Shown here one piece after another: positions 52,504-60,312 of a DNA stretch of 64,000 nucleotides. Within the stretch, counting starts at the first letter, position 1; the number at the start of each line of letters is the position of its first letter. Source of the DNA: Candidatus Magasanikiibacteriota bacterium (lineage in GTDB: Bacteria; Patescibacteriota; Patescibacteriia; Magasanikbacterales; GWA2-37-8); assembly GCA_036744835.1 (NCBI GenBank), contig DAIOHD010000001.1:736064-800063 (forward strand), written 5' to 3'. The translations under genes and the position numbers were made by a program. The notes under the pieces were generated by a model that saw only the letters and a list, made by a program, of their open reading frames with translations, ran no database searches and was not told where the DNA came from.

Positions 52504-53229
52504 TTAAGCGTTATTTTCTGCCGACACTTCCGAAACATTGTTTTCCGTAACTTGAACTTCGACCTCTTTATTTTCCACTTTTTCTTCAATTGCCGATTTT
52601 TTATTAATTTTCAAATCGCCTTGGCCTTTGATAATTATCAAACCATTGCGACCGCCCGGCACCGCTCCTTTTATATATAAAATATTGTCCTGTGGATTAA
52701 CTTCCACAATTTCTAAATTTTTTATGGTTACTTGCTCTCCTCCCATACGCCCACCCATACGCATACCTTTAAAAACTCTCTGTACGCCACCAGCACCGAT
52801 AGAACCAGGCATTCTCAAATTATCTTTATGACCATGAGAAGCCGGACCACCGCGAAAATGATGTCTCTTAACCACACCAGCAAAACCACGTCCTTTGGAA
52901 AAACCAACAACATCCACAACATCGCCGGAAACAAAAGTATCAACAGCGATAAAATCTCCTTTTTCTATATTTTCTACTTTATCCAAAGCAAAATCCTTCA
53001 AAAAACGAACCGGCGATAAACCTTTTAAATGTCCGGCTTGCGGTTTTTTTAAACGAAACTCTTTCTTTTCTCCAAAGCCAATTTGGATCGCTTTTTGATT
53101 GTCTTTTTCTCCATCTTTTACTTGTACAACAACACAAGGACCAGCTTTAATTTTAGTTACCGGCACTACTTCACCATTTGGTAAAAATACCTGTGTCATT
53201 TCTAATTTTTGTCCTAAAATAAATTTCAT
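52504..53229 (-). CDS. rplC: 50S ribosomal protein L3 (with extended C-terminus)
   Basis: MKFILGQKLEMTQVF...FKGMRMGGRMGGEQVTIKNLEIV. Confidence 0.9.
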   Translation of the reverse strand: MKFILGQKLEMTQVFLPNGEVVPVTKIKAGPCVVVQVKDGEKDNQKAIQIGFGEKKEFRLKKPQAGHLKGLSPVRFLKDFALDKVENIEKGDFIAVDTFVSGDVVDVVGFSKGRGFAGVVKRHHFRGGPASHGHKDNLRMPGSIGAGGVQRVFKGMRMGGRMGGEQVTIKNLEIVEVNPQDNILYIKGAVPGGRNGLIIIKGQGDLKINKKSAIEEKVENKEVEVQVTENNVSEVSAENNA

Positions 53230-53533
53230 AAATATTTAACGTCATTGGCCTCTTATTTTTTTGGGAAAAACAAGGTGCTTAACAAAAAAACTAGAAGCGC
53301 TAACATCGATTAATATCAATGATACTGCTTCTAGCCCTTTTCTGCCAAAAATTTAATCTAAAACAAAATGGCAGAAACTCTAAACTTTAGAGTTTTGGCT
53401 TGTAACAATACATTTATATCTGTTAGCGATTTCCTTTCTTTTGATATTATCTTTGATCTTTCGTCTAAAGGTTTTTATCCGCCAAAACGGACAATCTTAT
53501 TTAGCTAAAGATTTGATAACAAAATTTTGCCCT

Positions 53534-53562
53534 ATCTTAAACATATTTTTCGTTTTTGTCAA
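53534..53562 (-). promoter_or_regulatory. candidate internal sigma70-type promoter on minus strand (TTGACA-17 bp-TAAGAT) heading a ~300-nt structured leader before rplC
   Basis: Reverse complement of 53557-53562 is TTGACA; of 53534-53539 is TAAGAT; 17-nt spacer. Confidence 0.35.
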
Positions 53563-53603
53563 GGGCCCTTCTTTACTTCTTTGTAAATAACTTTTTATTT
53601 AAA

Positions 53604-53945
53604 CTACATTTTTATTTCCACATCCACACCTGACGGCAAATTGAGACTCATCAGAGCATCAATGCATTTGGCCGAAGCATCCATGATATCAATCAATCTT
53701 TTATGCACACGCATTTCATATTGTTCGCGAGCGTCTTTATGCACAAAAGTCGAACGATTTACGGTAAATTTATTTACTTCGGTTGGTAGCGGTACTGGGC
53801 CAATAACTTTGGCATCGTTACGCTGAGCCGTTTCAATGATGGTTTTGGTTGCTTGATCGATAATTTTATTATCGTAAGCGCGGATCTTGATTCTGATTCG
53901 ACTAACCTCAACACTTTTCTTGATTGTCGGTTTTTTTTCTGTCAT
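53604..53945 (-). CDS. rpsJ: 30S ribosomal protein S10
   Basis: Start at MTEKKPTIKK... (IRIKIRAYDNKIIDQ...) (track ORF 5'-extended to 53996). Confidence 0.9.
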   Translation of the reverse strand: MTEKKPTIKKSVEVSRIRIKIRAYDNKIIDQATKTIIETAQRNDAKVIGPVPLPTEVNKFTVNRSTFVHKDAREQYEMRVHKRLIDIMDASAKCIDALMSLNLPSGVDVEIKM

Positions 53946-54009
53946 GTGATTAACATTAAAGAACTTTATAGTCCAAGGGGGCGCAATTTCTTGCACCCCC
54001 TCGTCTATA

Positions 54010-55200
54010 TTATTTAATAATTTTTGTTACTACTCCAGCACCTACAGTACGACCACCTTCACGAATAGCGAAGTTCATCTTATCTTCCATAGCTACCGGT
54101 TTAATAAGCTTCACAACTAGATTAACGGTATCACCAGGCATAACCATTTCAGTGCCGGCAGGTAAAGTAACTTCACCTGTTACATCAGTAGTACGAATAT
54201 AAAATTGAGGTTTATATCCGTTAAAGAATGGTTTATGACGACCGCCTTCTTCTTGTTTCAAAACGTAAATTTGAGCTTCGTATTCGGTATGAGGAGTAAT
54301 AGAACCAGGTTTGGCTAAAACCATACCTCTTTCTACATCTTCTTTTTTAGTACCGCGAAGAAGTAATCCGGCGTTATCTCCAGCTTGACCTTCTTTAAGT
54401 TGTTTATTAAACATTTCAATACCGGTTATTACGGTTTTGGAAGTTTCTTCTTTCAAACCAACAATCTCAATTTCATCATTAACATGGATAATACCACGTT
54501 CAATACGACCAGTAACTACAGTACCACGGCCTTCAATAGAAAATACATCTTCAACTGGCATCAAGAAAGGTTTTTCAACATCACGTTGAGGAGTTGGAAT
54601 GTATTCATCAACCGCTTTCATCAAATCCATAATAGGTTTGATGGCAGTTTCATCAGTTGGATTTTCCAAAGCTTTCAAAGCGGAACCACGAATAATAGGA
54701 GTGGTGTCACCAGGAAATTTATATTTTTTGAGCAAATCACGAACTTCTGCTTCTACCAAATCAATCAATTCCGGATCAGAAACTTGATCAACTTTGTTTA
54801 AGAAAACAATAATATAAGGCACACCTACTTGACGAGCAAGCACAATGTGTTCGCGAGTTTGAGGCATCGGACCGTCAGTAGCGGAAACTACAAGAATAGC
54901 ACCGTCCATTTGAGCAGCACCTGTAATCATGTTTTTCACATAATCAGCATGTCCAGGACAATCAACATGAGCGTAGTGACGAGCTTCTGATTCATATTCT
55001 ACATGGGCAGTAGAAATAGTAATACCACGAGCTTTTGATTCTGGAGCTTTGTCCAAATCATCAACGCCCTTATTTTGAGCGGCCAAACCTTTTGCAGCTA
55101 AAGTCTGCAAAATAGCGGCGGTAAGAGTTGTTTTGCCATGGTCAACGTGGCCGATAGTGCCGATGTTGACGTGTGGCTTACTTCTAACAAACTCAGCCAT
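54010..55200 (-). CDS. tuf: elongation factor Tu
   Basis: [30 protein letters not shown]...; start at 55198-55200. Confidence 0.95.
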
Positions 55201-55475
55201 ATTGGTTAACATAAATATTGCGGTACTCTGCCCGAGTGGTCGAGCTTAAGTTTTGTAATCCAACCGCGAAAAAATATTTTTAAATTAAAAAATGTTATCA
55301 AACAACAGCTCCTAATCTATAATTTAGATTAATAGCTTTTTTTTAATAGCTTTTGCATTATAACAGATTATTTATTTTTTGGCAAGAGGGCAGATGTGGA
55401 CATTTTGTGCACCGTTTAGCCACCCTCTATTTTGCTTATTGCTTATGACTTATCGTTTTATATATGCTATATGCT

Positions 55476-56057
55476 TTATTCAACTGGTTCTAAATAAAAT
55501 CTTTCTTCTTCCTCCGGAATGCCAGCTAGGTCTTCTTCTTGAAAAAAAGCATTGTTAAAAAACTCTTGATCGGGATCATTCTTTTTACGTAATTTTTGTT
55601 CAATTTCCTCTTTTTTTATATCACGACGGCGAAATAAATCTTGAGTGTCAAGAACATCTTTTAAAGAAGATAGACCGGGGCCAAGTGGTTTTTTTCTCTC
55701 AATACGGGCAAAATTTTCAAAATCAACATTTTTTCTATCTTCTTTGATAAATTGTTCTACGGCTTTTTCAATGCTATTTTTTTCTCTATTTTTACGTAAA
55801 ATTTCCTCGAATTCTTCATATTTTTGCTTTTCTTCCTGTAAGGAGTGCCAAAAAGCAATTTCTTTATTAACCTTTTCTAACATCTCTGTTTCATTAAGAT
55901 TAGCCACAATTTGACGATGCGTGCCTGCAGTTAAACGTTCGTATTCAAAAGCCGGTAAAATAACGTATAAATCACCATTTTCGCTATCAGCCAAAACCCC
56001 CCTACCTTCTGTTTGGCGTAATAATTTAAACAATTCTTTTAAAATTTTATTAAGCAT
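55476..56057 (-). CDS. hypothetical protein (charged, helical; no recognisable domain), co-oriented with and upstream of tuf
   Basis: 193-aa ORF; part of the island separating fusA from tuf. Confidence 0.45.
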   Translation of the reverse strand: MLNKILKELFKLLRQTEGRGVLADSENGDLYVILPAFEYERLTAGTHRQIVANLNETEMLEKVNKEIAFWHSLQEEKQKYEEFEEILRKNREKNSIEKAVEQFIKEDRKNVDFENFARIERKKPLGPGLSSLKDVLDTQDLFRRRDIKKEEIEQKLRKKNDPDQEFFNNAFFQEEDLAGIPEEEERFYLEPVE

Positions 56058-56246
56058 ACAAATAATTATTTAAAAAGTTTTTTAATTGTAGCATTGATTA
56101 GCAAAAAGTCAAGCCGGACTTCGGAATATAGACTACGATGATACGAAATATTGGCTATTTTGCTTTTTTTTGATTTTGTGATAAAATATTTATAGAATTA
56201 AAAAATCTATTTTGGCTAATTTTAGCTAAAATACAACAAAAAGGCC

Positions 56247-56275
56247 TTGACAAAAATGCTAAAATGTGCTATAAT
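56247..56275 (+). promoter_or_regulatory. perfect-consensus sigma70 promoter TTGACA-17 bp-TATAAT driving the plus-strand island genes
   Basis: -35 at 56247-56252, -10 at 56270-56275. The track ORF ATG at 56247 lies inside this promoter, so the CDS start is more likely the downstream MEFLKK. Confidence 0.5.
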
Positions 56276-56309
56276 TAAACGTTATATAGCTAAGATTAAA
56301 CAAAAAAAT

Positions 56310-57167
56310 ATGGAATTTTTAAAAAAATCATTTGAAACAATAAAAAATAAAATCAATTCTCAAGAAAAAAAATCCAAAACTTGGGAATCCAAAATCGGCA
56401 ACTTAAGTAAAGAATATTTAAGCAATCTTGAAAACGACTTTACTCAACTAAACGCCGAGGTTTTAAAAACAAAAATAAAATTTCTCGGCAAAACAGAAAG
56501 TGGCGAATCAATATTAACTTCAGGATTTTCCAGAAAAGAATTGGTCTCACCAAAAGAAATCGGGGAAACCGAAGGTGGTGGTGTAATTTATGAACATTCA
56601 CCTCTTTATAATTTTATAAAAGAAGCGGTTGAACTAACAAAAAACTGGCAAGAAAAAATAACTTCTGAAAAATTAACCGACGAAGAAAAAAAGATTTTAA
56701 ACAATACCTTAAAAATAAAAATTCAAAGTTTAAAAAACAGCTTATTTGACATTCGCCATCAAGCAGATCCCGATAAAGCCAAAAAAGATGTTTTAAAGAA
56801 AGCAAAACTATATTTTCACGAAGAAGGTTTAAAAACAAACGAACTAAGTAATATTGATGAATGTATTGCTAAAATTCAAAACTTAGCCGAAACTTATAGT
56901 CCAGAAGAAAGCAGTGATGATTCTATTCGCCAAGCCGTAATTTTGATAGGCAGAATTTCCACTGAAGAAAAAACCGAACCCAAAAAACTGATCTTTGATT
57001 TAAAAAGTATTTTTTCCAATCCAGACAAAAAAGATATTGAAACTTTTTATGAAAAATTGCTTGGTTTTTTTGATACTGTGGAAAATATTCAAAAAAATCA
57101 AACTAGCTCGATTTTAAAAGATGATGAAACTCAAATCATGGGACCACCGCCAGCTTTTAATGCTTAA
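56310..57167 (+). CDS. hypothetical protein (285 aa from MEFLKKSF...), helical, no recognisable domain
   Basis: Long ORF downstream of consensus promoter. Confidence 0.5.
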   Translation: MEFLKKSFETIKNKINSQEKKSKTWESKIGNLSKEYLSNLENDFTQLNAEVLKTKIKFLGKTESGESILTSGFSRKELVSPKEIGETEGGGVIYEHSPLYNFIKEAVELTKNWQEKITSEKLTDEEKKILNNTLKIKIQSLKNSLFDIRHQADPDKAKKDVLKKAKLYFHEEGLKTNELSNIDECIAKIQNLAETYSPEESSDDSIRQAVILIGRISTEEKTEPKKLIFDLKSIFSNPDKKDIETFYEKLLGFFDTVENIQKNQTSSILKDDETQIMGPPPAFNA

Positions 57168-57197
57168 AATTATAAATAATTTAACCTAACAAATTAT

Positions 57198-57740
57198 ATG
57201 GGACTAGAAACCACGGGTTATATCCCGCCGGACTATAAACATTTTAAGACACCGGAAACATCTAAAAAATCTTTAACAAAAAATTCTATGGAAAAAAAAG
57301 TAACTCGCGAAGAAATGAGTGATATTTTGATGGAACGCCCAAAAATTGGAACTGATGAACTCTACAAAATATTAACGGAAGATTTAGACAGAGAAAAAGA
57401 GGAGGAATTAAGAAAAAAAGCAAAAAAAGAAGAGATGGTTGATCAAATTATATTAAACATGAAAGAATATTTAAATTCTCCCGAGCATGCCAAAAAAACC
57501 CAAGAAAATCTGTTTAAAGCCATAAGAGAAGCTATTAAAACCATAGAAGAACAGGGTGAAGAAATAATTAAACTAAAAATTGCCGGCCATAATACAGGAG
57601 CAAAAAAAGCACAGCCTATTCCACGAGAATTTAAAGGTAAAATTTTAGAAGGTACGGATGATGAAGAAGAAACAAAAATAGGAATTAATCCTTTACTTGA
57701 AGAAAATTATAATGAAACTGGAAAAGAAGCTAATTCTTAA
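57198..57740 (+). CDS. hypothetical Lys/Glu-rich coiled-coil protein
   Basis: 180-aa ORF, 30 bp after preceding gene. Confidence 0.45.
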   Translation: MGLETTGYIPPDYKHFKTPETSKKSLTKNSMEKKVTREEMSDILMERPKIGTDELYKILTEDLDREKEEELRKKAKKEEMVDQIILNMKEYLNSPEHAKKTQENLFKAIREAIKTIEEQGEEIIKLKIAGHNTGAKKAQPIPREFKGKILEGTDDEEETKIGINPLLEENYNETGKEANS

Positions 57741-57775
57741 AAAAATTGTAAATTAAAATAAATAATTTTAACTTT

Positions 57776-58180
57776 ATGTTTGAAGGAATGAAAAATTTTT
57801 TTAGTTCACCTCCCGATAAAAAAATCTCTGGTAAAAAAGTAGAGACTATCAGTTCAACTACACGAAAAAGTCAAGAAAAACCGTCTTACAAAAATACCGT
57901 CGGTTATGATGAAAACCTGGATAAAGGAGGAGTAATAATAGATTGGGGAAAAAATACTGATAATAGCAATAGTGGAACCAAAGAAGCCTACAAAGTAATT
58001 CTTGATGAACAAATGAAAGGAACTAACTTCCAAAACCGTCCTGATGCTATTCCTTTCAAAAAAGCTGACCCTAATTTTGTCGGAATGTCCGGAGATACAA
58101 AAACTTATGAAATTAATCCCGATGAAATTGATCTTAAAAAAACAAGAGATAAAATAGACAAGATGCGTCCTGCGGCTTAA
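57776..58180 (+). CDS. hypothetical protein
   Basis: 134-aa ORF, followed by bidirectional terminator. Confidence 0.45.
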   Translation: MFEGMKNFFSSPPDKKISGKKVETISSTTRKSQEKPSYKNTVGYDENLDKGGVIIDWGKNTDNSNSGTKEAYKVILDEQMKGTNFQNRPDAIPFKKADPNFVGMSGDTKTYEINPDEIDLKKTRDKIDKMRPAA

Positions 58181-58189
58181 AAAATAAAA

Positions 58190-58226
58190 ATAAAAACGAC
58201 CCAAAATCAAAGGGTCGTTTTTATTT
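58190..58226. terminator. bidirectional rho-independent terminator shared by fusA (minus) and the plus-strand island (aaaacgaccc-aaaatcaaa-gggtcgtttt)
   Basis: 10-bp stem with A-run and T-run on both sides. Confidence 0.65.
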
Positions 58227-58236
58227 TATTTTATTT

Positions 58237-60312
58237 TTATTTCTTTTTTCCGGTAATAATATTTTGTGCAACATTACCAGGCACCTCAGCATAATGAGAA
58301 AATTCCATAGTAGAACTGGCACGACCCTGAGTAATATTACGTAAGTTGGTGGTATAACCAAACATAGATGCCAACGGTACGATGGCACGTACGGCTTTGA
58401 GCTGACCACGATCAGTCATTTCTTGAATTTGACCGCGTTTGGAATTAAGATCACCAATCACATCTCCCATGAATTGTTCTGGAGTCAAAACTTCCACTTT
58501 CATAATAGGTTCTAAAATTATCGGGTTAGCTTTACGACAAGCATCTTGAAAAGCCATGGAGCCGGCCATTTTGAAAGCAGCTTCAGAAGAATCAACTTCG
58601 TGATAAGAGCCATCATAACAAGTAACTTTAACGTCCACTACCGGATACCCAGCTTGGATACCACGAGTAATAGCTTCTTTAACACCTTTTTCAATCGCCG
58701 GTAAATATTCACGAGGAACAACGCCACCTTTAACAGCATCAATAAATTCAAAACCTTTATTTTCTTCTTGTGGTTCCACGCGCAACCAACAGTGACCGTA
58801 TTGACCTCGACCACCGGATTGTTTGACATATTTACCCTCGGCTTCAGCGGAATTTTTAATAGTTTCTTTATAAGCAACCTGTGGCGCCCCGACATTGGCT
58901 TCAACTTTAAATTCACGCTTCATACGATCCACGATAATTTCCAAGTGAAGCTCACCCATACCTTCAATAATAGTTTGCAAAGTTTCTTCATCGGTGTGAA
59001 CCTTGAAAGTCGGATCTTCTTCAGTAAGTTTTTGTAAAGCCATGCCGATTTTTTCTTGATCAACTTTGGTCTTTGGCTCAATAGCAACGGAAATAACCGG
59101 TTCCGGAAAAGTAATCTTTTCCAAAACAATCGGTTTATTTTCATCACAAAGAGTGTCTCCGGTAACAGTATCTTTGAGCCCAATAGCAGCCGCAATTTCT
59201 CCGGCAAAAACCTCGTTAACATCCTCACGGTGATTAGAATGCATACGCACAATACGAGAAATTCTTTCTTTTTCACCTTTGGTGGAATTAAGCATATAGG
59301 AACCGGCTGAAATTTTTCCTGAATAAACACGGAAAAAAATAAGACGACCAACAAATGGATCAGTAGCCACTTTAAAAGCAAGCGCAGAAAAAGGCTCGTC
59401 GTCATTGGCTTTGCGAGTCATCGGTTCGTCGGTATCCGGATTAAGACCTTTGATCTCTGGTAAATCGGTTGGAGCAGGTAAATAATAATTTACAGCATCA
59501 AGTCCTAATTGAACACCGATATTTCCTAAAGCACTACCACACATCACTGGAAAAACTCTACTGGCAATTACCATTTCACGAATAGCTTTTTTAATTTCTT
59601 CGACAGTTAGTGTTTCACCATTTAAAAATTTGCCCATAGTTTCATCGTTGGCTTCAGAAATTTTTTCAATCATTTCCGCACGATATTTAACAACGTTTTC
59701 TTTCATGTCTTCCGGAATAGGAATTTCCACAATATTTTCACCATTTTTCCCTTCAAATTTATAAGCTTTTTCTTCTATCAAATCAACGATACCTGAAAAA
59801 GTGCTTTCAGCACCAATTGGTAATTGAATAGCTACTGCATCTTTACTCAAACGTTCTTTAATAGAAGCCAAGGTCATATAAAAATCCGCACCCATCTTAT
59901 CCATTTTATTGGCGAAAGCGATACGAGGTACATTATATTTAGTAGCTTGATGCCAAACGGTTTCTGATTGAGGTTCTACACCTTGAGATCCGTCAAACAA
60001 AGCAACAGCTCCATCAAGTACACGCAAAGAACGCTCTACCTCTACGGTAAAGTCTACGTGTCCGGGAGTATCAATCAAATTGATACGATGGTTTTTCCAA
60101 AAACAAGTGGTGGCAGCAGAAGTGATAGTAATACCACGCTCTTTTTCTTGTTCCATCCAATCCATTTCTGCGGCCCCTTCGTGCACTTCACCAATTTTAT
60201 GTTTGCGTCCGGTATAAAACAAAACGCGTTCGGAAAAAGTGGTTTTACCGGCATCAATGTGAGCCATGATCCCGATATTTCTAGTTTTATCCAAAGGATA
60301 TTCACGAGGCAT
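58237..60312 (-). CDS. fusA: elongation factor G
   Basis: [25 protein letters not shown]..., 691 aa five-domain EF-G. Confidence 0.95.

What the first reader, a model, noticed from the sequence alone, without database searches (positions are those of the whole stretch)
53230..53603. 370-bp structured non-coding spacer with internal promoter between rpsJ and rplC
S10 and L3 genes are normally adjacent. Here they are separated by about 370 bp with no ORF. The spacer contains a minus-strand TTGACA-17-TAAGAT promoter-like site (53534-53562) and several hairpins: ctagaagc...gcttctag (8 bp), aaactctaaa-ct-tttagagttt (10 bp) and ccgccaaaacgg. In this genome tuf abuts rpsJ, so a classical S10-operon leader upstream of rpsJ is impossible. 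This spacer may be a relocated regulatory leader for the L3-L4-L23 block (for example an L4 autoregulatory target), or it may host an sRNA.
Basis: partly seen in the sequence, partly recalled or inferred. Interest (0 to 1): 0.5.

Follow-up and report, generated by a model that had tools for sequence, protein, structure and literature searches.

The report
Leader RNA with attenuator before rplC
The 374-base gap between the S10 and L3 ribosomal-protein genes of this Candidatus Magasanikbacteria genome holds a conserved promoter, a folded RNA domain and a transcription terminator just ahead of L3, which looks like an undescribed control leader for the large ribosomal-protein operon.

Summary
rpsJ ends at 53604 and rplC starts at 53229 on the minus strand. 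The 374 nt between them hold no conserved ORF.

About 24 distinct orthologous spacers from Magasanikbacteria-type genomes keep the same ordered modules:
- A TTGACA-17-TAnnAT promoter (53562..53534).
- A 5' hairpin domain (53518..53449). Helices P1 and P2 covary around an invariant internal loop, AUAAGAU / AAAAC.
- A variable middle closed by an AGCC:GGCU helix.
- An intrinsic terminator, GGCUAGAAGC-hairpin-GCUUCUAG-U7 (53341..53284), 55 nt before the rplC ATG. No conserved promoter follows it.

The terminator module alone recurs just upstream of rplC in other Patescibacteria lineages. Nothing matches Rfam 15 or the E. coli S10 leader.

The best reading is a cis-acting ribosomal-protein leader that works by transcription attenuation. 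It is functionally analogous to the E. coli L4/S10 leader but sits downstream of rpsJ. rpsJ itself is preceded by a boxA-like element.

The ligand is unknown, and no convincing rRNA mimicry was found. A stand-alone sRNA remains a rival. I class it as a new member of a known kind, of moderate interest.

The parts
53604..53945 (-). rpsJ (S10), the upstream gene. It follows tuf after a 64-nt spacer.
   Evidence: ORF and translation. Pfam Ribosomal_S10 on the identical contig.
53534..53562 (-). Sigma-70-type promoter: TTGACA (53562..53557), 17 nt, TAAGAT (53539..53534). The inferred transcription start is near 53527.
   Evidence: Found by the scan. TTGACA is invariant in alignment A2. A perfect -35 is present in 21 of 23 orthologous spacers, 20 with 17-nt spacing, usually 28-38 nt before the AUAAGAU box. 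The start site is inferred, not measured.
53449..53518 (-). 5' structured domain. P0 pairs AUCUUU (53512..53507) with AAAGAU (53461..53456). P1 pairs CUAAAU (53504..53499) with CUUUAG (53470..53465). The invariant internal loop is AUAAGAU (53500..53494) opposite AAAAC (53475..53471). P2 is a hairpin at 53493..53476.
   Evidence: RNAalifold on 24 sequences. Pair counts: 87.5% paired, and 58 double-sided changes against 19.9 in shuffles, reached by 0 of 500 shuffles. Covariance model R1 gives a single hit in the window at 56 bits, E = 2e-9. R1 hits lie only upstream of rplC in related loci.
53430..53442 (-). Purine-rich block AAAAGAAAGGAAA. Relatives carry GGAG, GAGGAAAU or CUAGAAG at the same place.
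   Evidence: Seen in all family members. It is complementary to the terminator 3' strand CUUCUAG-U in several members. A role as antiterminator strand is inferred only.
53397..53401 (-). Conserved AAGCC, the 5' strand of helix P3. It pairs with GGCU at 53336..53333, at the base of the terminator.
   Evidence: AGCC:GGCU is the MFE partner in 17 of 22 leaders when the terminator 3' strand is left out. Each sequence pairs better with its own partner than with others (permutation about 0.0015, with a selection bias noted).
53342..53394 (-). Two variable hairpins enclosed by P3: AACUCUAAA/UUUAGAGUU and CUGCCA...UGGCAG.
   Evidence: Folds. Sequence and number of hairpins differ between relatives.
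53284..53341 (-). Intrinsic terminator or attenuator. It comprises an A-tract with GGG, the stem CUAGAAGC (53334..53327) paired with GCUUCUAG (53298..53291), an upper hairpin, and U7 (53290..53284).
   Evidence: Folding energy is -18.5 kcal/mol for the core and -24.8 with the A/U extension. In 22 sequences 92.4% of cells are paired, with 43 double-sided changes against 12.9 in shuffles, reached by 0 of 500. Model R2 scores 75 bits in the window and also hits just upstream of rplC in other Patescibacteria.
53230..53283 (-). Remaining 5' UTR between the terminator and the rplC start codon. It begins with the conserved GUUAA. No conserved promoter is present.
   Evidence: Alignments. The only promoter-like site near here (53348..53319) lacks a conserved -35 even in close relatives.
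52504..53229 (-). rplC (L3), the first gene of a tightly packed run of ribosomal-protein genes that continues to at least about 43000.
   Evidence: ORFs. Pfam families on the identical contig.

Best explanation
The spacer encodes the promoter and a roughly 300-nt 5' leader of the rplC-rplD-rplW-rplB... ribosomal-protein operon.

Proposed course of events:
- Transcription starts about 7 nt after the TAAGAT box, near 53527.
- The nascent RNA first forms a long irregular hairpin (P0-P1-P2). Its invariant A-rich internal loop (AUAAGAU / AAAAC) is the likely binding site for a protein.
- A variable middle region follows, closed by the AGCC:GGCU helix P3.
- Last comes a strong intrinsic terminator that ends 55 nt before the rplC start codon.

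Expression of L3 and the genes behind it therefore depends on read-through of this terminator. I propose autogenous feedback by transcription attenuation. When a ribosomal protein encoded downstream is in excess over rRNA, it binds the 5' domain and favours termination. Candidates are L4 or L3 by position, and S8 by a loose resemblance of the loop.

Shown here: the promoter, the covarying structure, the terminator, their order, and their linkage to rplC.
Inferred: the transcription start, the regulatory switch, and the ligand.
For: Conservation of the modules:
- The same ordered modules occur in about 24 distinct spacers whose L3 is only 54-86% identical to the window's.
- The promoter has a perfect TTGACA in 21 of 23 spacers, with 17-nt spacing in 20.
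- The 5' domain covaries: pair 16-79 is UA in 16 and CG in 7 sequences, and pair 26-69 is UA in 13 and CG in 11. Overall 0 of 500 shuffles reach the observed score.
- The terminator stem covaries above an invariant base.

Linkage to rplC:
- R1 and R2 hit once each in the 64-kb window (apart from a weaker opposite-strand echo of the R2 terminator hairpin at the same site) and, in 648 kb of related loci, at E < 0.1 only directly upstream of rplC on the operon strand (again apart from such echoes).
- No conserved promoter lies between the terminator and rplC.
- In L008 a 144-aa ORF is inserted between rpsJ and the element, which stays attached to rplC.

Breadth:
- The terminator module GGCYAGAAG...CUUCURG-U4-7 is also found just before rplC in Uhrbacteria-type and other loci that lack the 5' domain.
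- Other lineages carry different terminator-like hairpins 15-60 nt before rplC.

Alternative folds:
- P3 competes with the base of the terminator.
- In the window an antiterminated fold (-67.3 kcal/mol) and the terminated fold (-65.9 kcal/mol) are nearly isoenergetic.

Precedents: L4-dependent attenuation in the E. coli S10 leader and L20-dependent attenuation in B. subtilis (PMC3616713, PMC1865079).
Against: - There are no expression data. The start site and the 3' ends are predictions.
- No ligand is identified. R1 finds nothing in E. coli 16S or 23S rRNA. The resemblances to 23S H97 and to the 16S h21 S8 site are partial and topologically different.
- In 20 of 22 family members the MFE of the whole leader is simply the terminator. 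The own-versus-cross test for a mid-region antiterminator is not significant, p = 0.12. No conserved RNA switch is therefore demonstrated.
- A strong terminator in front of an essential, highly expressed operon needs an explanation.
- A consensus promoter plus a terminator is also the signature of an sRNA gene.
Confidence: 0.62

Rival explanations
1. A stand-alone small RNA gene of about 245 nt (53527..53284), with its own promoter and terminator and a trans-acting or housekeeping role. The rplC operon would then be transcribed by polymerases arriving from tuf-rpsJ that read through, perhaps modified at the boxA-like site upstream of rpsJ.
For: - It has a consensus promoter, a conserved structured body and a strong terminator that is the MFE in 20 of 22 members. 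This is the classic sRNA gene anatomy.
- A boxA-like element precedes rpsJ.
- L008 lacks the promoter but keeps the RNA.
Against: - It always lies on the operon strand, immediately upstream of rplC.
- It stays with rplC when a gene is inserted after rpsJ.
- The terminator module persists before rplC in lineages that lack the 5' domain and the promoter.
- No second promoter for the essential operon exists.
- There is no match to 6S, SRP, RNase P, tmRNA or any other Rfam family.
Confidence: 0.2
2. A non-regulatory junction. The hairpins would serve mRNA processing or stability, or the terminator would insulate the tuf-rpsJ unit, and the promoter would simply restart transcription. No ligand sensing would be involved.
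For: No ligand or rRNA mimic was found. There is no demonstrable conserved antiterminator.
Against: - The terminator lies downstream of the promoter, not upstream, so it cannot insulate the promoter's own transcripts.
- An invariant internal loop flanked by covarying helices is the typical pattern of a specific binding site.
- The invariant sequence of the terminator stem across deep lineages goes beyond what hairpin stability needs.
Confidence: 0.1
3. A riboswitch-like or tRNA-sensing attenuator that responds to a small molecule such as an alarmone or nucleotide, or to uncharged tRNA, rather than to a ribosomal protein.
For: The architecture is a 5' sensor domain followed by a terminator.
Against: - There is no match to any riboswitch or T-box model, even at E = 10.
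- The conserved core is one small A-rich internal loop in a rod-like hairpin, without a multi-helix junction or pseudoknot of the kind metabolite pockets usually need.
- The 5' domain is confined to one order-level clade.
Confidence: 0.05

Closest known systems
E. coli S10-operon leader (L4-interacting RNA; L4- and NusA-dependent attenuation)
   Same: It is a promoter-proximal structured leader of the operon that contains rplC-rplD-rplW-rplB. An intrinsic terminator lies a few tens of nt before the first regulated cistron, and a required hairpin lies upstream of the terminator hairpin (PMC3616713).
   Different: - The E. coli leader precedes rpsJ. Here the element follows rpsJ and precedes rplC.
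- There is no sequence or structure homology. R1 and R2 find nothing in the E. coli leader, and inspection shows nothing.
- The E. coli family is confined to Gammaproteobacteria.
- The ligand here is unknown.
B. subtilis infC-rpmI-rplT leader (L20-dependent transcription attenuation)
   Same: It is a roughly 200-nt leader in which binding of a ribosomal protein to a 5' structure decides whether a downstream terminator forms (PMC1865079).
   Different: It belongs to a different operon and has a different protein and fold. It shows clear rRNA mimicry and a defined antiterminator. Neither is demonstrated here.
L4 r-leader candidate of Archaeoglobi, and the S10 r-leader / rpsJ motifs of Firmicutes (Eckert & Weinberg 2020; Narunsky et al. 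2024)
   Same: They are comparative-genomics candidates for ribosomal-protein leaders in front of rplC-rplD-rplW-rplB or rpsJ (PMC7247131, PMC11109978).
   Different: They come from different lineages. No family in Rfam 15, including whichever of these motifs it holds, matches the present RNA. I did not check whether these motifs are in that library. The Firmicutes motifs lie upstream of rpsJ.
S8 binding sites (16S rRNA helix 21 and E. coli spc mRNA)
   Same: Each is a small asymmetric A-rich internal loop between two helices. The leader has UAAG(A)U on the 5' strand and A(A)AAC on the 3' strand. E. coli 16S has U594-AAGU-C599 and G639-AUAC-U644 (PMC4176348). rpsH lies in the same gene run.
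   Different: Both strands of the leader's loop are one nucleotide longer. The A596-U644 pair has no equivalent. R1 does not hit h21. The organism's own 16S rRNA could not be examined. This is a lead only.

Membership tests
Any Rfam 15 family (includes the curated r-protein leaders, riboswitches, T-box, 6S, SRP and others) | The covariance-model score reaches the family's gathering threshold. | tested here: not met
   The whole window yields only 3 tRNAs. In the spacer at E <= 10 the best hits are 18-19 bits against thresholds of 75-144 bits, all to unrelated families. Nine orthologous loci at E <= 0.1 give nothing in the spacer. Note that the E. coli S10 leader itself is not in Rfam 15.
E. 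coli-type S10 (L4) leader | It lies upstream of rpsJ, and its last hairpin overlaps the rpsJ start. | tested here: not met
   The element lies downstream of rpsJ and upstream of rplC.
E. coli-type S10 (L4) leader | Homologous helices HD-HG in sequence and structure. | tested here: not met
   R2 gives no hit and R1 gives no hit in the E. coli leader region with filters off. No similarity is visible by eye.
E. coli-type S10 (L4) leader | L4 (with NusA) increases termination at the leader terminator. | not testable with these tools
   This needs in vitro transcription or genetics.
Ribosomal-protein leader (generic, cis-regulatory) | It lies in the 5' UTR of a ribosomal-protein operon, on the same strand, and the position is conserved. 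| tested here: met
   All R1 and R2 hits with E < 0.1 (other than opposite-strand echoes of the R2 hairpin) lie immediately upstream of rplC on the operon strand. The element stays with rplC in L008.
Ribosomal-protein leader (generic, cis-regulatory) | A conserved secondary structure supported by compensatory changes. | tested here: met
   In both modules 0 of 500 shuffles reach the observed covariation, and the slid controls score 3-10 times lower.
Ribosomal-protein leader (generic, cis-regulatory) | It mimics the rRNA site of the regulating protein. | tested here: inconclusive
   Only E. coli rRNA was available. R1 gives no hit. Partial motif matches were found at 23S 2738-2756 (H97) and 1754-1788 and at the 16S h21 S8 site, but in different structural contexts. 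A match of GGCUAGAAG to H43 is at chance level.
Ribosomal-protein leader (generic, cis-regulatory) | It is bound by a protein of the regulated operon, with feedback on expression. | not testable with these tools
   This needs biochemistry or genetics.
Intrinsic (Rho-independent) terminator | A stable stem-loop immediately followed by a U-tract. | tested here: met
   The core hairpin folds at -18.5 kcal/mol and is followed directly by U7. U6-7 is conserved in the 22 aligned orthologues. The simple scanner missed it because the stem has internal bulges.
Sigma-70-type promoter | -35 and -10 hexamers with 16-18 nt spacing, and an active transcription start. | tested here: inconclusive
   Consensus and conservation are met. 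Activity and the start site cannot be tested here.
Independent sRNA gene | Its own promoter and terminator, and a function independent of the adjacent gene. | tested here: inconclusive
   A promoter and a terminator are present. Independence is doubtful, because the element is always linked to rplC. A trans function is not testable.

The most novel reading that the evidence does not exclude
The invariant helix GGCYAGAAG / CUUCURG plus U-tract just before rplC may be an ancient attenuator shared across the Magasanikbacteria, Uhrbacteria and related Patescibacteria lineages. It would be read sequence-specifically by one factor, either a ribosomal protein such as L4, L3 or S8 or a Nus-type factor. 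This single site would gate a super-operon of about 25 genes (S10, spc and alpha genes). rpsJ (NusE) would have been split off and placed under separate boxA-type control. The terminated 245-nt RNA might in addition be a stable RNA with a function of its own.
Probability: 0.2. Interest if true: 0.65.

Novelty: new member of a known kind. Interest (0 to 1): 0.45.

Why it matters
Autogenous control of ribosomal-protein operons is understood almost only in E. coli and Bacillus, and the known leader RNAs are phylogenetically narrow. Almost nothing is known about gene regulation in the Candidate Phyla Radiation, whose members are uncultured and have reduced genomes and unusual ribosomes.

This locus offers a concrete, testable regulatory RNA for that group. 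It has a defined promoter, a small invariant loop that is a likely protein-binding site, and a terminator whose stem sequence is conserved across deep lineages.

It also shows a rewiring of the classical layout. The control point sits after rpsJ instead of before it, and rpsJ carries its own boxA-like element. That speaks to how S10's dual role, as ribosomal protein and as NusE, may be handled. The covariance models built here could be used to annotate these genomes.

Tried and rejected
- **Known RNA family.** Rfam at gathering thresholds and at permissive E-values found nothing, both on the window and on nine orthologous loci.
- **Hidden small protein.** No operon-strand ORF exceeds 25 aa. 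The plus-strand ORFs of 46, 49 and 31 aa are interrupted in close relatives. SD-like purine blocks are followed by short ORFs of inconsistent frame and length.
- **Homology to the E. coli S10 leader.** None was found.
- **Mimicry of 23S H97.** E. coli 2736-2766 reads AGAUAAG..GAAAGCAUCU..CGAAA. The pattern matches once. In rRNA, however, these bases are internal-loop and hairpin-loop residues, whereas in the leader AGAU and AUCU form the covarying helix P1. Only AUAAG and AAAnCAU are truly shared, so I rejected it as structural mimicry.
- **23S H43 similarity (GGCUUAGAAGCAGCCAUCAUU).** It extends only in the window's own subclade, and the core match is at chance level.
- **boxA inside the leader.** AUCUUUAACUAA occurs only in the window's subclade and lies within the paired P0/P1, so I rejected it.
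- **Second promoter TTGGCA-18-TATCAT (53348..53319), which would bypass the terminator.** Its -35 is not conserved even among close relatives.
- **Conserved mid-region antiterminator.** It is attractive in the window. It is not the MFE in 20 of 22 relatives, and the own-versus-cross pairing test is not significant. I kept it only as a possibility.
- **The organism's own rRNA.** I could not obtain it, because the collection scans were exhausted.

Full report
**Organism and layout.** The window comes from a Candidatus Magasanikbacteria (Patescibacteria/CPR) genome. The nearest named L3 proteins carry that label, and the identical L3 is on contigs of up to 906 kb. The genes run on the minus strand:
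- tuf, 55212..54010
- rpsJ, 53945..53604
- a 374-nt gap, 53603..53230
- rplC, 53229..52504
- then rplD, rplW, rplB, rpsS, rplV and a tightly packed run of ribosomal-protein genes

GC content in the gap is about 0.28-0.32, against 0.35-0.47 in the flanking genes.

**Check of the observation.** The longest operon-strand ORF in the gap is 25 aa. The plus-strand ORFs of 31-49 aa carry stops and frameshifts in relatives whose S10 is 93-97% identical. The region folds much better than shuffles, with z = -5.7. The gap itself is unusual:
- 32 nt in E. coli
- 8-57 nt in Dehalococcoidia
- 56-347 nt in other Chloroflexota
- 162-792 nt in every Patescibacteria locus recovered

**Comparative anatomy.** I collected orthologous loci from three sources: representative genomes, metagenomes, and contigs that encode the closest L3 proteins. 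About 24 distinct spacers share an ordered set of modules, although their L3 is only 54-86% identical to the window's.

1. *Promoter.* A perfect TTGACA -35 hexamer is present in 21 of 23 spacers. In 20 of them it lies exactly 17 nt from a TAnnAT-like -10. It usually ends 28-38 nt before the next module.

2. *5' hairpin domain.* It consists of helix P0, a bulge G(A/G)CG, helix P1, an internal loop and hairpin P2. The loop nucleotides AUAAGAU (5' strand) and AAAAC(A)U (3' strand) are invariant or nearly so. The flanking helices change in a compensated way:
   - P1 is CUAAAU/AUUUAG, CAGAU/AUCUG, CUUGAU/AUCAAG or CGAAU/AUUCG.
   - The first P2 pair is U-A in 13 sequences and C-G in 11.
   - For 11 pairs in 24 sequences, 87.5% of cells are paired.
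   - There are 58 double-sided changes against 19.9 +/- 4.4 in shuffles, reached by 0 of 500 shuffles.
   - The covariation score is 0.53, against at most 0.18 when the partners are slid.

3. *Middle region.* It is variable but has a conserved purine-rich block and a conserved (A)AAGCC. With the terminator's 3' strand left out, AGCC pairs with the GGCU at the base of the terminator in the MFE structure of 17 of 22 leaders. This helix (P3) is often extended by UUCUU:AAGAA-type pairs that differ between lineages, and it encloses one to three variable hairpins.

4. *Intrinsic terminator.* It reads AAGGCUAGAAGC - upper hairpin - GCUUCUAG - U6-7, followed by GUUAA.
   - The upper stem covaries freely and the lower stem is almost invariant.
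   - 92.4% of cells are paired, with 43 double-sided changes against 12.9 +/- 3.0 in shuffles, reached by 0 of 500.
   - In the window the core hairpin folds at -18.5 kcal/mol.
   - The U-tract ends 55 nt before the rplC ATG.

No conserved promoter follows the terminator. The only promoter-like site nearby lacks a conserved -35 even in close relatives.

**Distribution.**
- Model R1 (5' domain) hits once in the window at 56 bits.
- In 648 kb of related loci, R1 hits below E = 0.1 lie only directly upstream of rplC, and only in the Magasanikbacteria-type clade.
- Model R2 (terminator with flanks) hits the same loci. It also gives weaker hits (17-33 bits) just upstream of rplC in Uhrbacteria-type and other Patescibacteria loci. 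These show the same GGCYAGAAG...CUUCURG-U4-6(n)GUUA core without the 5' domain.
- Other lineages have unrelated spacers that still end in a terminator-like hairpin 15-60 nt before rplC.
- In L008 a 144-aa ORF is inserted between rpsJ and the element, and the element stays adjacent to rplC. The element therefore belongs to rplC, not to rpsJ.

**Mechanism.** The order is promoter, structured domain, terminator, first cistron. No alternative promoter exists. This is the anatomy of a transcription attenuator. The invariant internal loop between covarying helices is the pattern expected of a specific protein-binding site. By analogy with the E. coli S10 leader (L4 with NusA) and the B. subtilis L20 leader (PMC3616713, PMC1865079), I propose autogenous feedback: excess free ribosomal protein binds the 5' domain and increases termination.

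The switch itself is not resolved.
- P3 competes with the lowest pairs and the A-tract of the terminator.
- Purine blocks complementary to CUUCUAG occur downstream of the 5' domain. L005 even carries a second ACUAGAAG.
- In the window an antiterminated long-range fold (-67.3 kcal/mol) is nearly isoenergetic with the terminated fold (-65.9 kcal/mol), and it is the MFE at each co-transcriptional step.
- However, in 20 of 22 relatives the MFE is the terminator, and the own-versus-cross pairing test has no power, p = 0.12.

Read-through may therefore be set kinetically or by a factor.

**Ligand.** I could not obtain the organism's own rRNA. Against E. coli rRNA:
- R1 finds nothing.
- A relaxed pattern matches once, at 23S 2738-2756 in H97. 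H97 is one of the two anchor points of uL6 (PMC6821245). The shared bases sit in a different structural context there.
- The leader's loop (UAAG-A-U / A-AAA-C) loosely resembles the S8 site of 16S h21 (UAAG-U / A-UA-C; PMC4176348). Both strands of the leader's loop are one base longer.
- The match of GGCUAGAAG to H43 is at chance level.

The ligand is left open. L4 and L3 are candidates by position and S8 by resemblance.

**Comparison with known systems.**
- Nothing in Rfam 15 matches.
- The E. coli S10 leader is not in Rfam and shows no homology to R1 or R2.
- Published candidates exist upstream of rplC in Archaeoglobi and upstream of rpsJ in Firmicutes (PMC7247131, PMC11109978), but none for CPR. 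A full-text search for CPR ribosomal-protein leaders returned nothing.

The element works like an r-protein leader with an attenuator. It is not a member of any described family, and its position after rpsJ is unusual.

**Rivals.**
- A stand-alone sRNA gene fits the promoter-plus-terminator anatomy and the strength of the terminator. It fits poorly with the strict linkage to rplC and the lack of another promoter for the operon.
- A purely structural junction does not explain the invariant loop or the invariant terminator stem.
- A metabolite or tRNA sensor has no support from the models or the architecture.

**Verdict.** The element is a real, conserved, previously uncatalogued leader RNA. I file it as a new member of a known kind. 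Its regulatory logic is plausible but unproven, and the ligand is unknown.

Noticed in passing
window 53946..54009 (minus strand), between tuf and rpsJ: A strong GC hairpin (GAGGGGGUGCAAGAAAUUGCGCCCCCUU; the 76-nt spacer region containing it folds at about -30 kcal/mol) follows the tuf stop. Relatives keep a 10-13 bp GC hairpin with a U-rich tail at the same place. It looks like a terminator or attenuator placed before rpsJ, with no room for a promoter after it.
   Followed up: partly
window about 53959..53968 (minus strand), 8-20 nt before the rpsJ ATG: A boxA-like sequence is present: GUUCUUUAAU here and GCUCUUUAAU in relatives. E. coli boxA is UGCUCUUUAACAA. It is conserved in the Magasanikbacteria-type loci (28 of 96 loci matched the pattern), and there is no obvious Shine-Dalgarno for rpsJ. 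It may mean NusB/S10 autoregulation of rpsJ, as proposed for some Gammaproteobacteria (PMC5725501).
   Followed up: partly
L008:1834-2268: A 144-aa ORF of unknown function is inserted between rpsJ and the leader in a Magasanikbacteria MAG (JACPGS010000004.1). That spacer is 792 nt and has no recognisable TTGACA promoter in front of the leader.
   Followed up: partly
L009:2360-2490: The terminator hairpin of this orthologue carries an insertion of about 120 nt in its loop, with short direct repeats (AAACAGAUUUA twice and CUGUCUAAAUCAAU twice).
   Followed up: no
L014:1430-1682: About 250 nt between the terminator and rplC contain a long perfect inverted repeat (TTGTTGCACAATATGCTCAT ... ATGAGCATATTGTGCAACAA). 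It may be an inserted palindromic element.
   Followed up: no
L010, L013, L024 spacers; L025, L035, L040, L055 spacers: Other Patescibacteria lineages have their own conserved motifs in the rpsJ-rplC spacer. One is ATCRCGATTTTGTCC...AAGTCGCGATTTTT. Another is GCTGGTTTCAAGACCAG followed by T5-7. Each ends in a terminator-like hairpin 15-30 nt before rplC. These may be further, unrelated leaders.
   Followed up: partly
L058, L074, L075 (Anaerolineae/Chloroflexota): Some Chloroflexota also have long rpsJ-rplC spacers of 250-350 nt, whereas Dehalococcoidia have 8-57 nt. Their content was not examined.
   Followed up: no
L013:1886-1985: The first 100 nt of this spacer are a run of N. This is probably a scaffold gap, or it may be database masking, so this orthologue could not be assessed.
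   Followed up: no
window 55213..58236: fusA (58237..60312) and tuf are separated by about 3 kb that holds several ORFs on both strands (for example 55476..56057 on the minus strand and 56247..57167 on the plus strand). The classical str operon is therefore interrupted in this genome.
   Followed up: no
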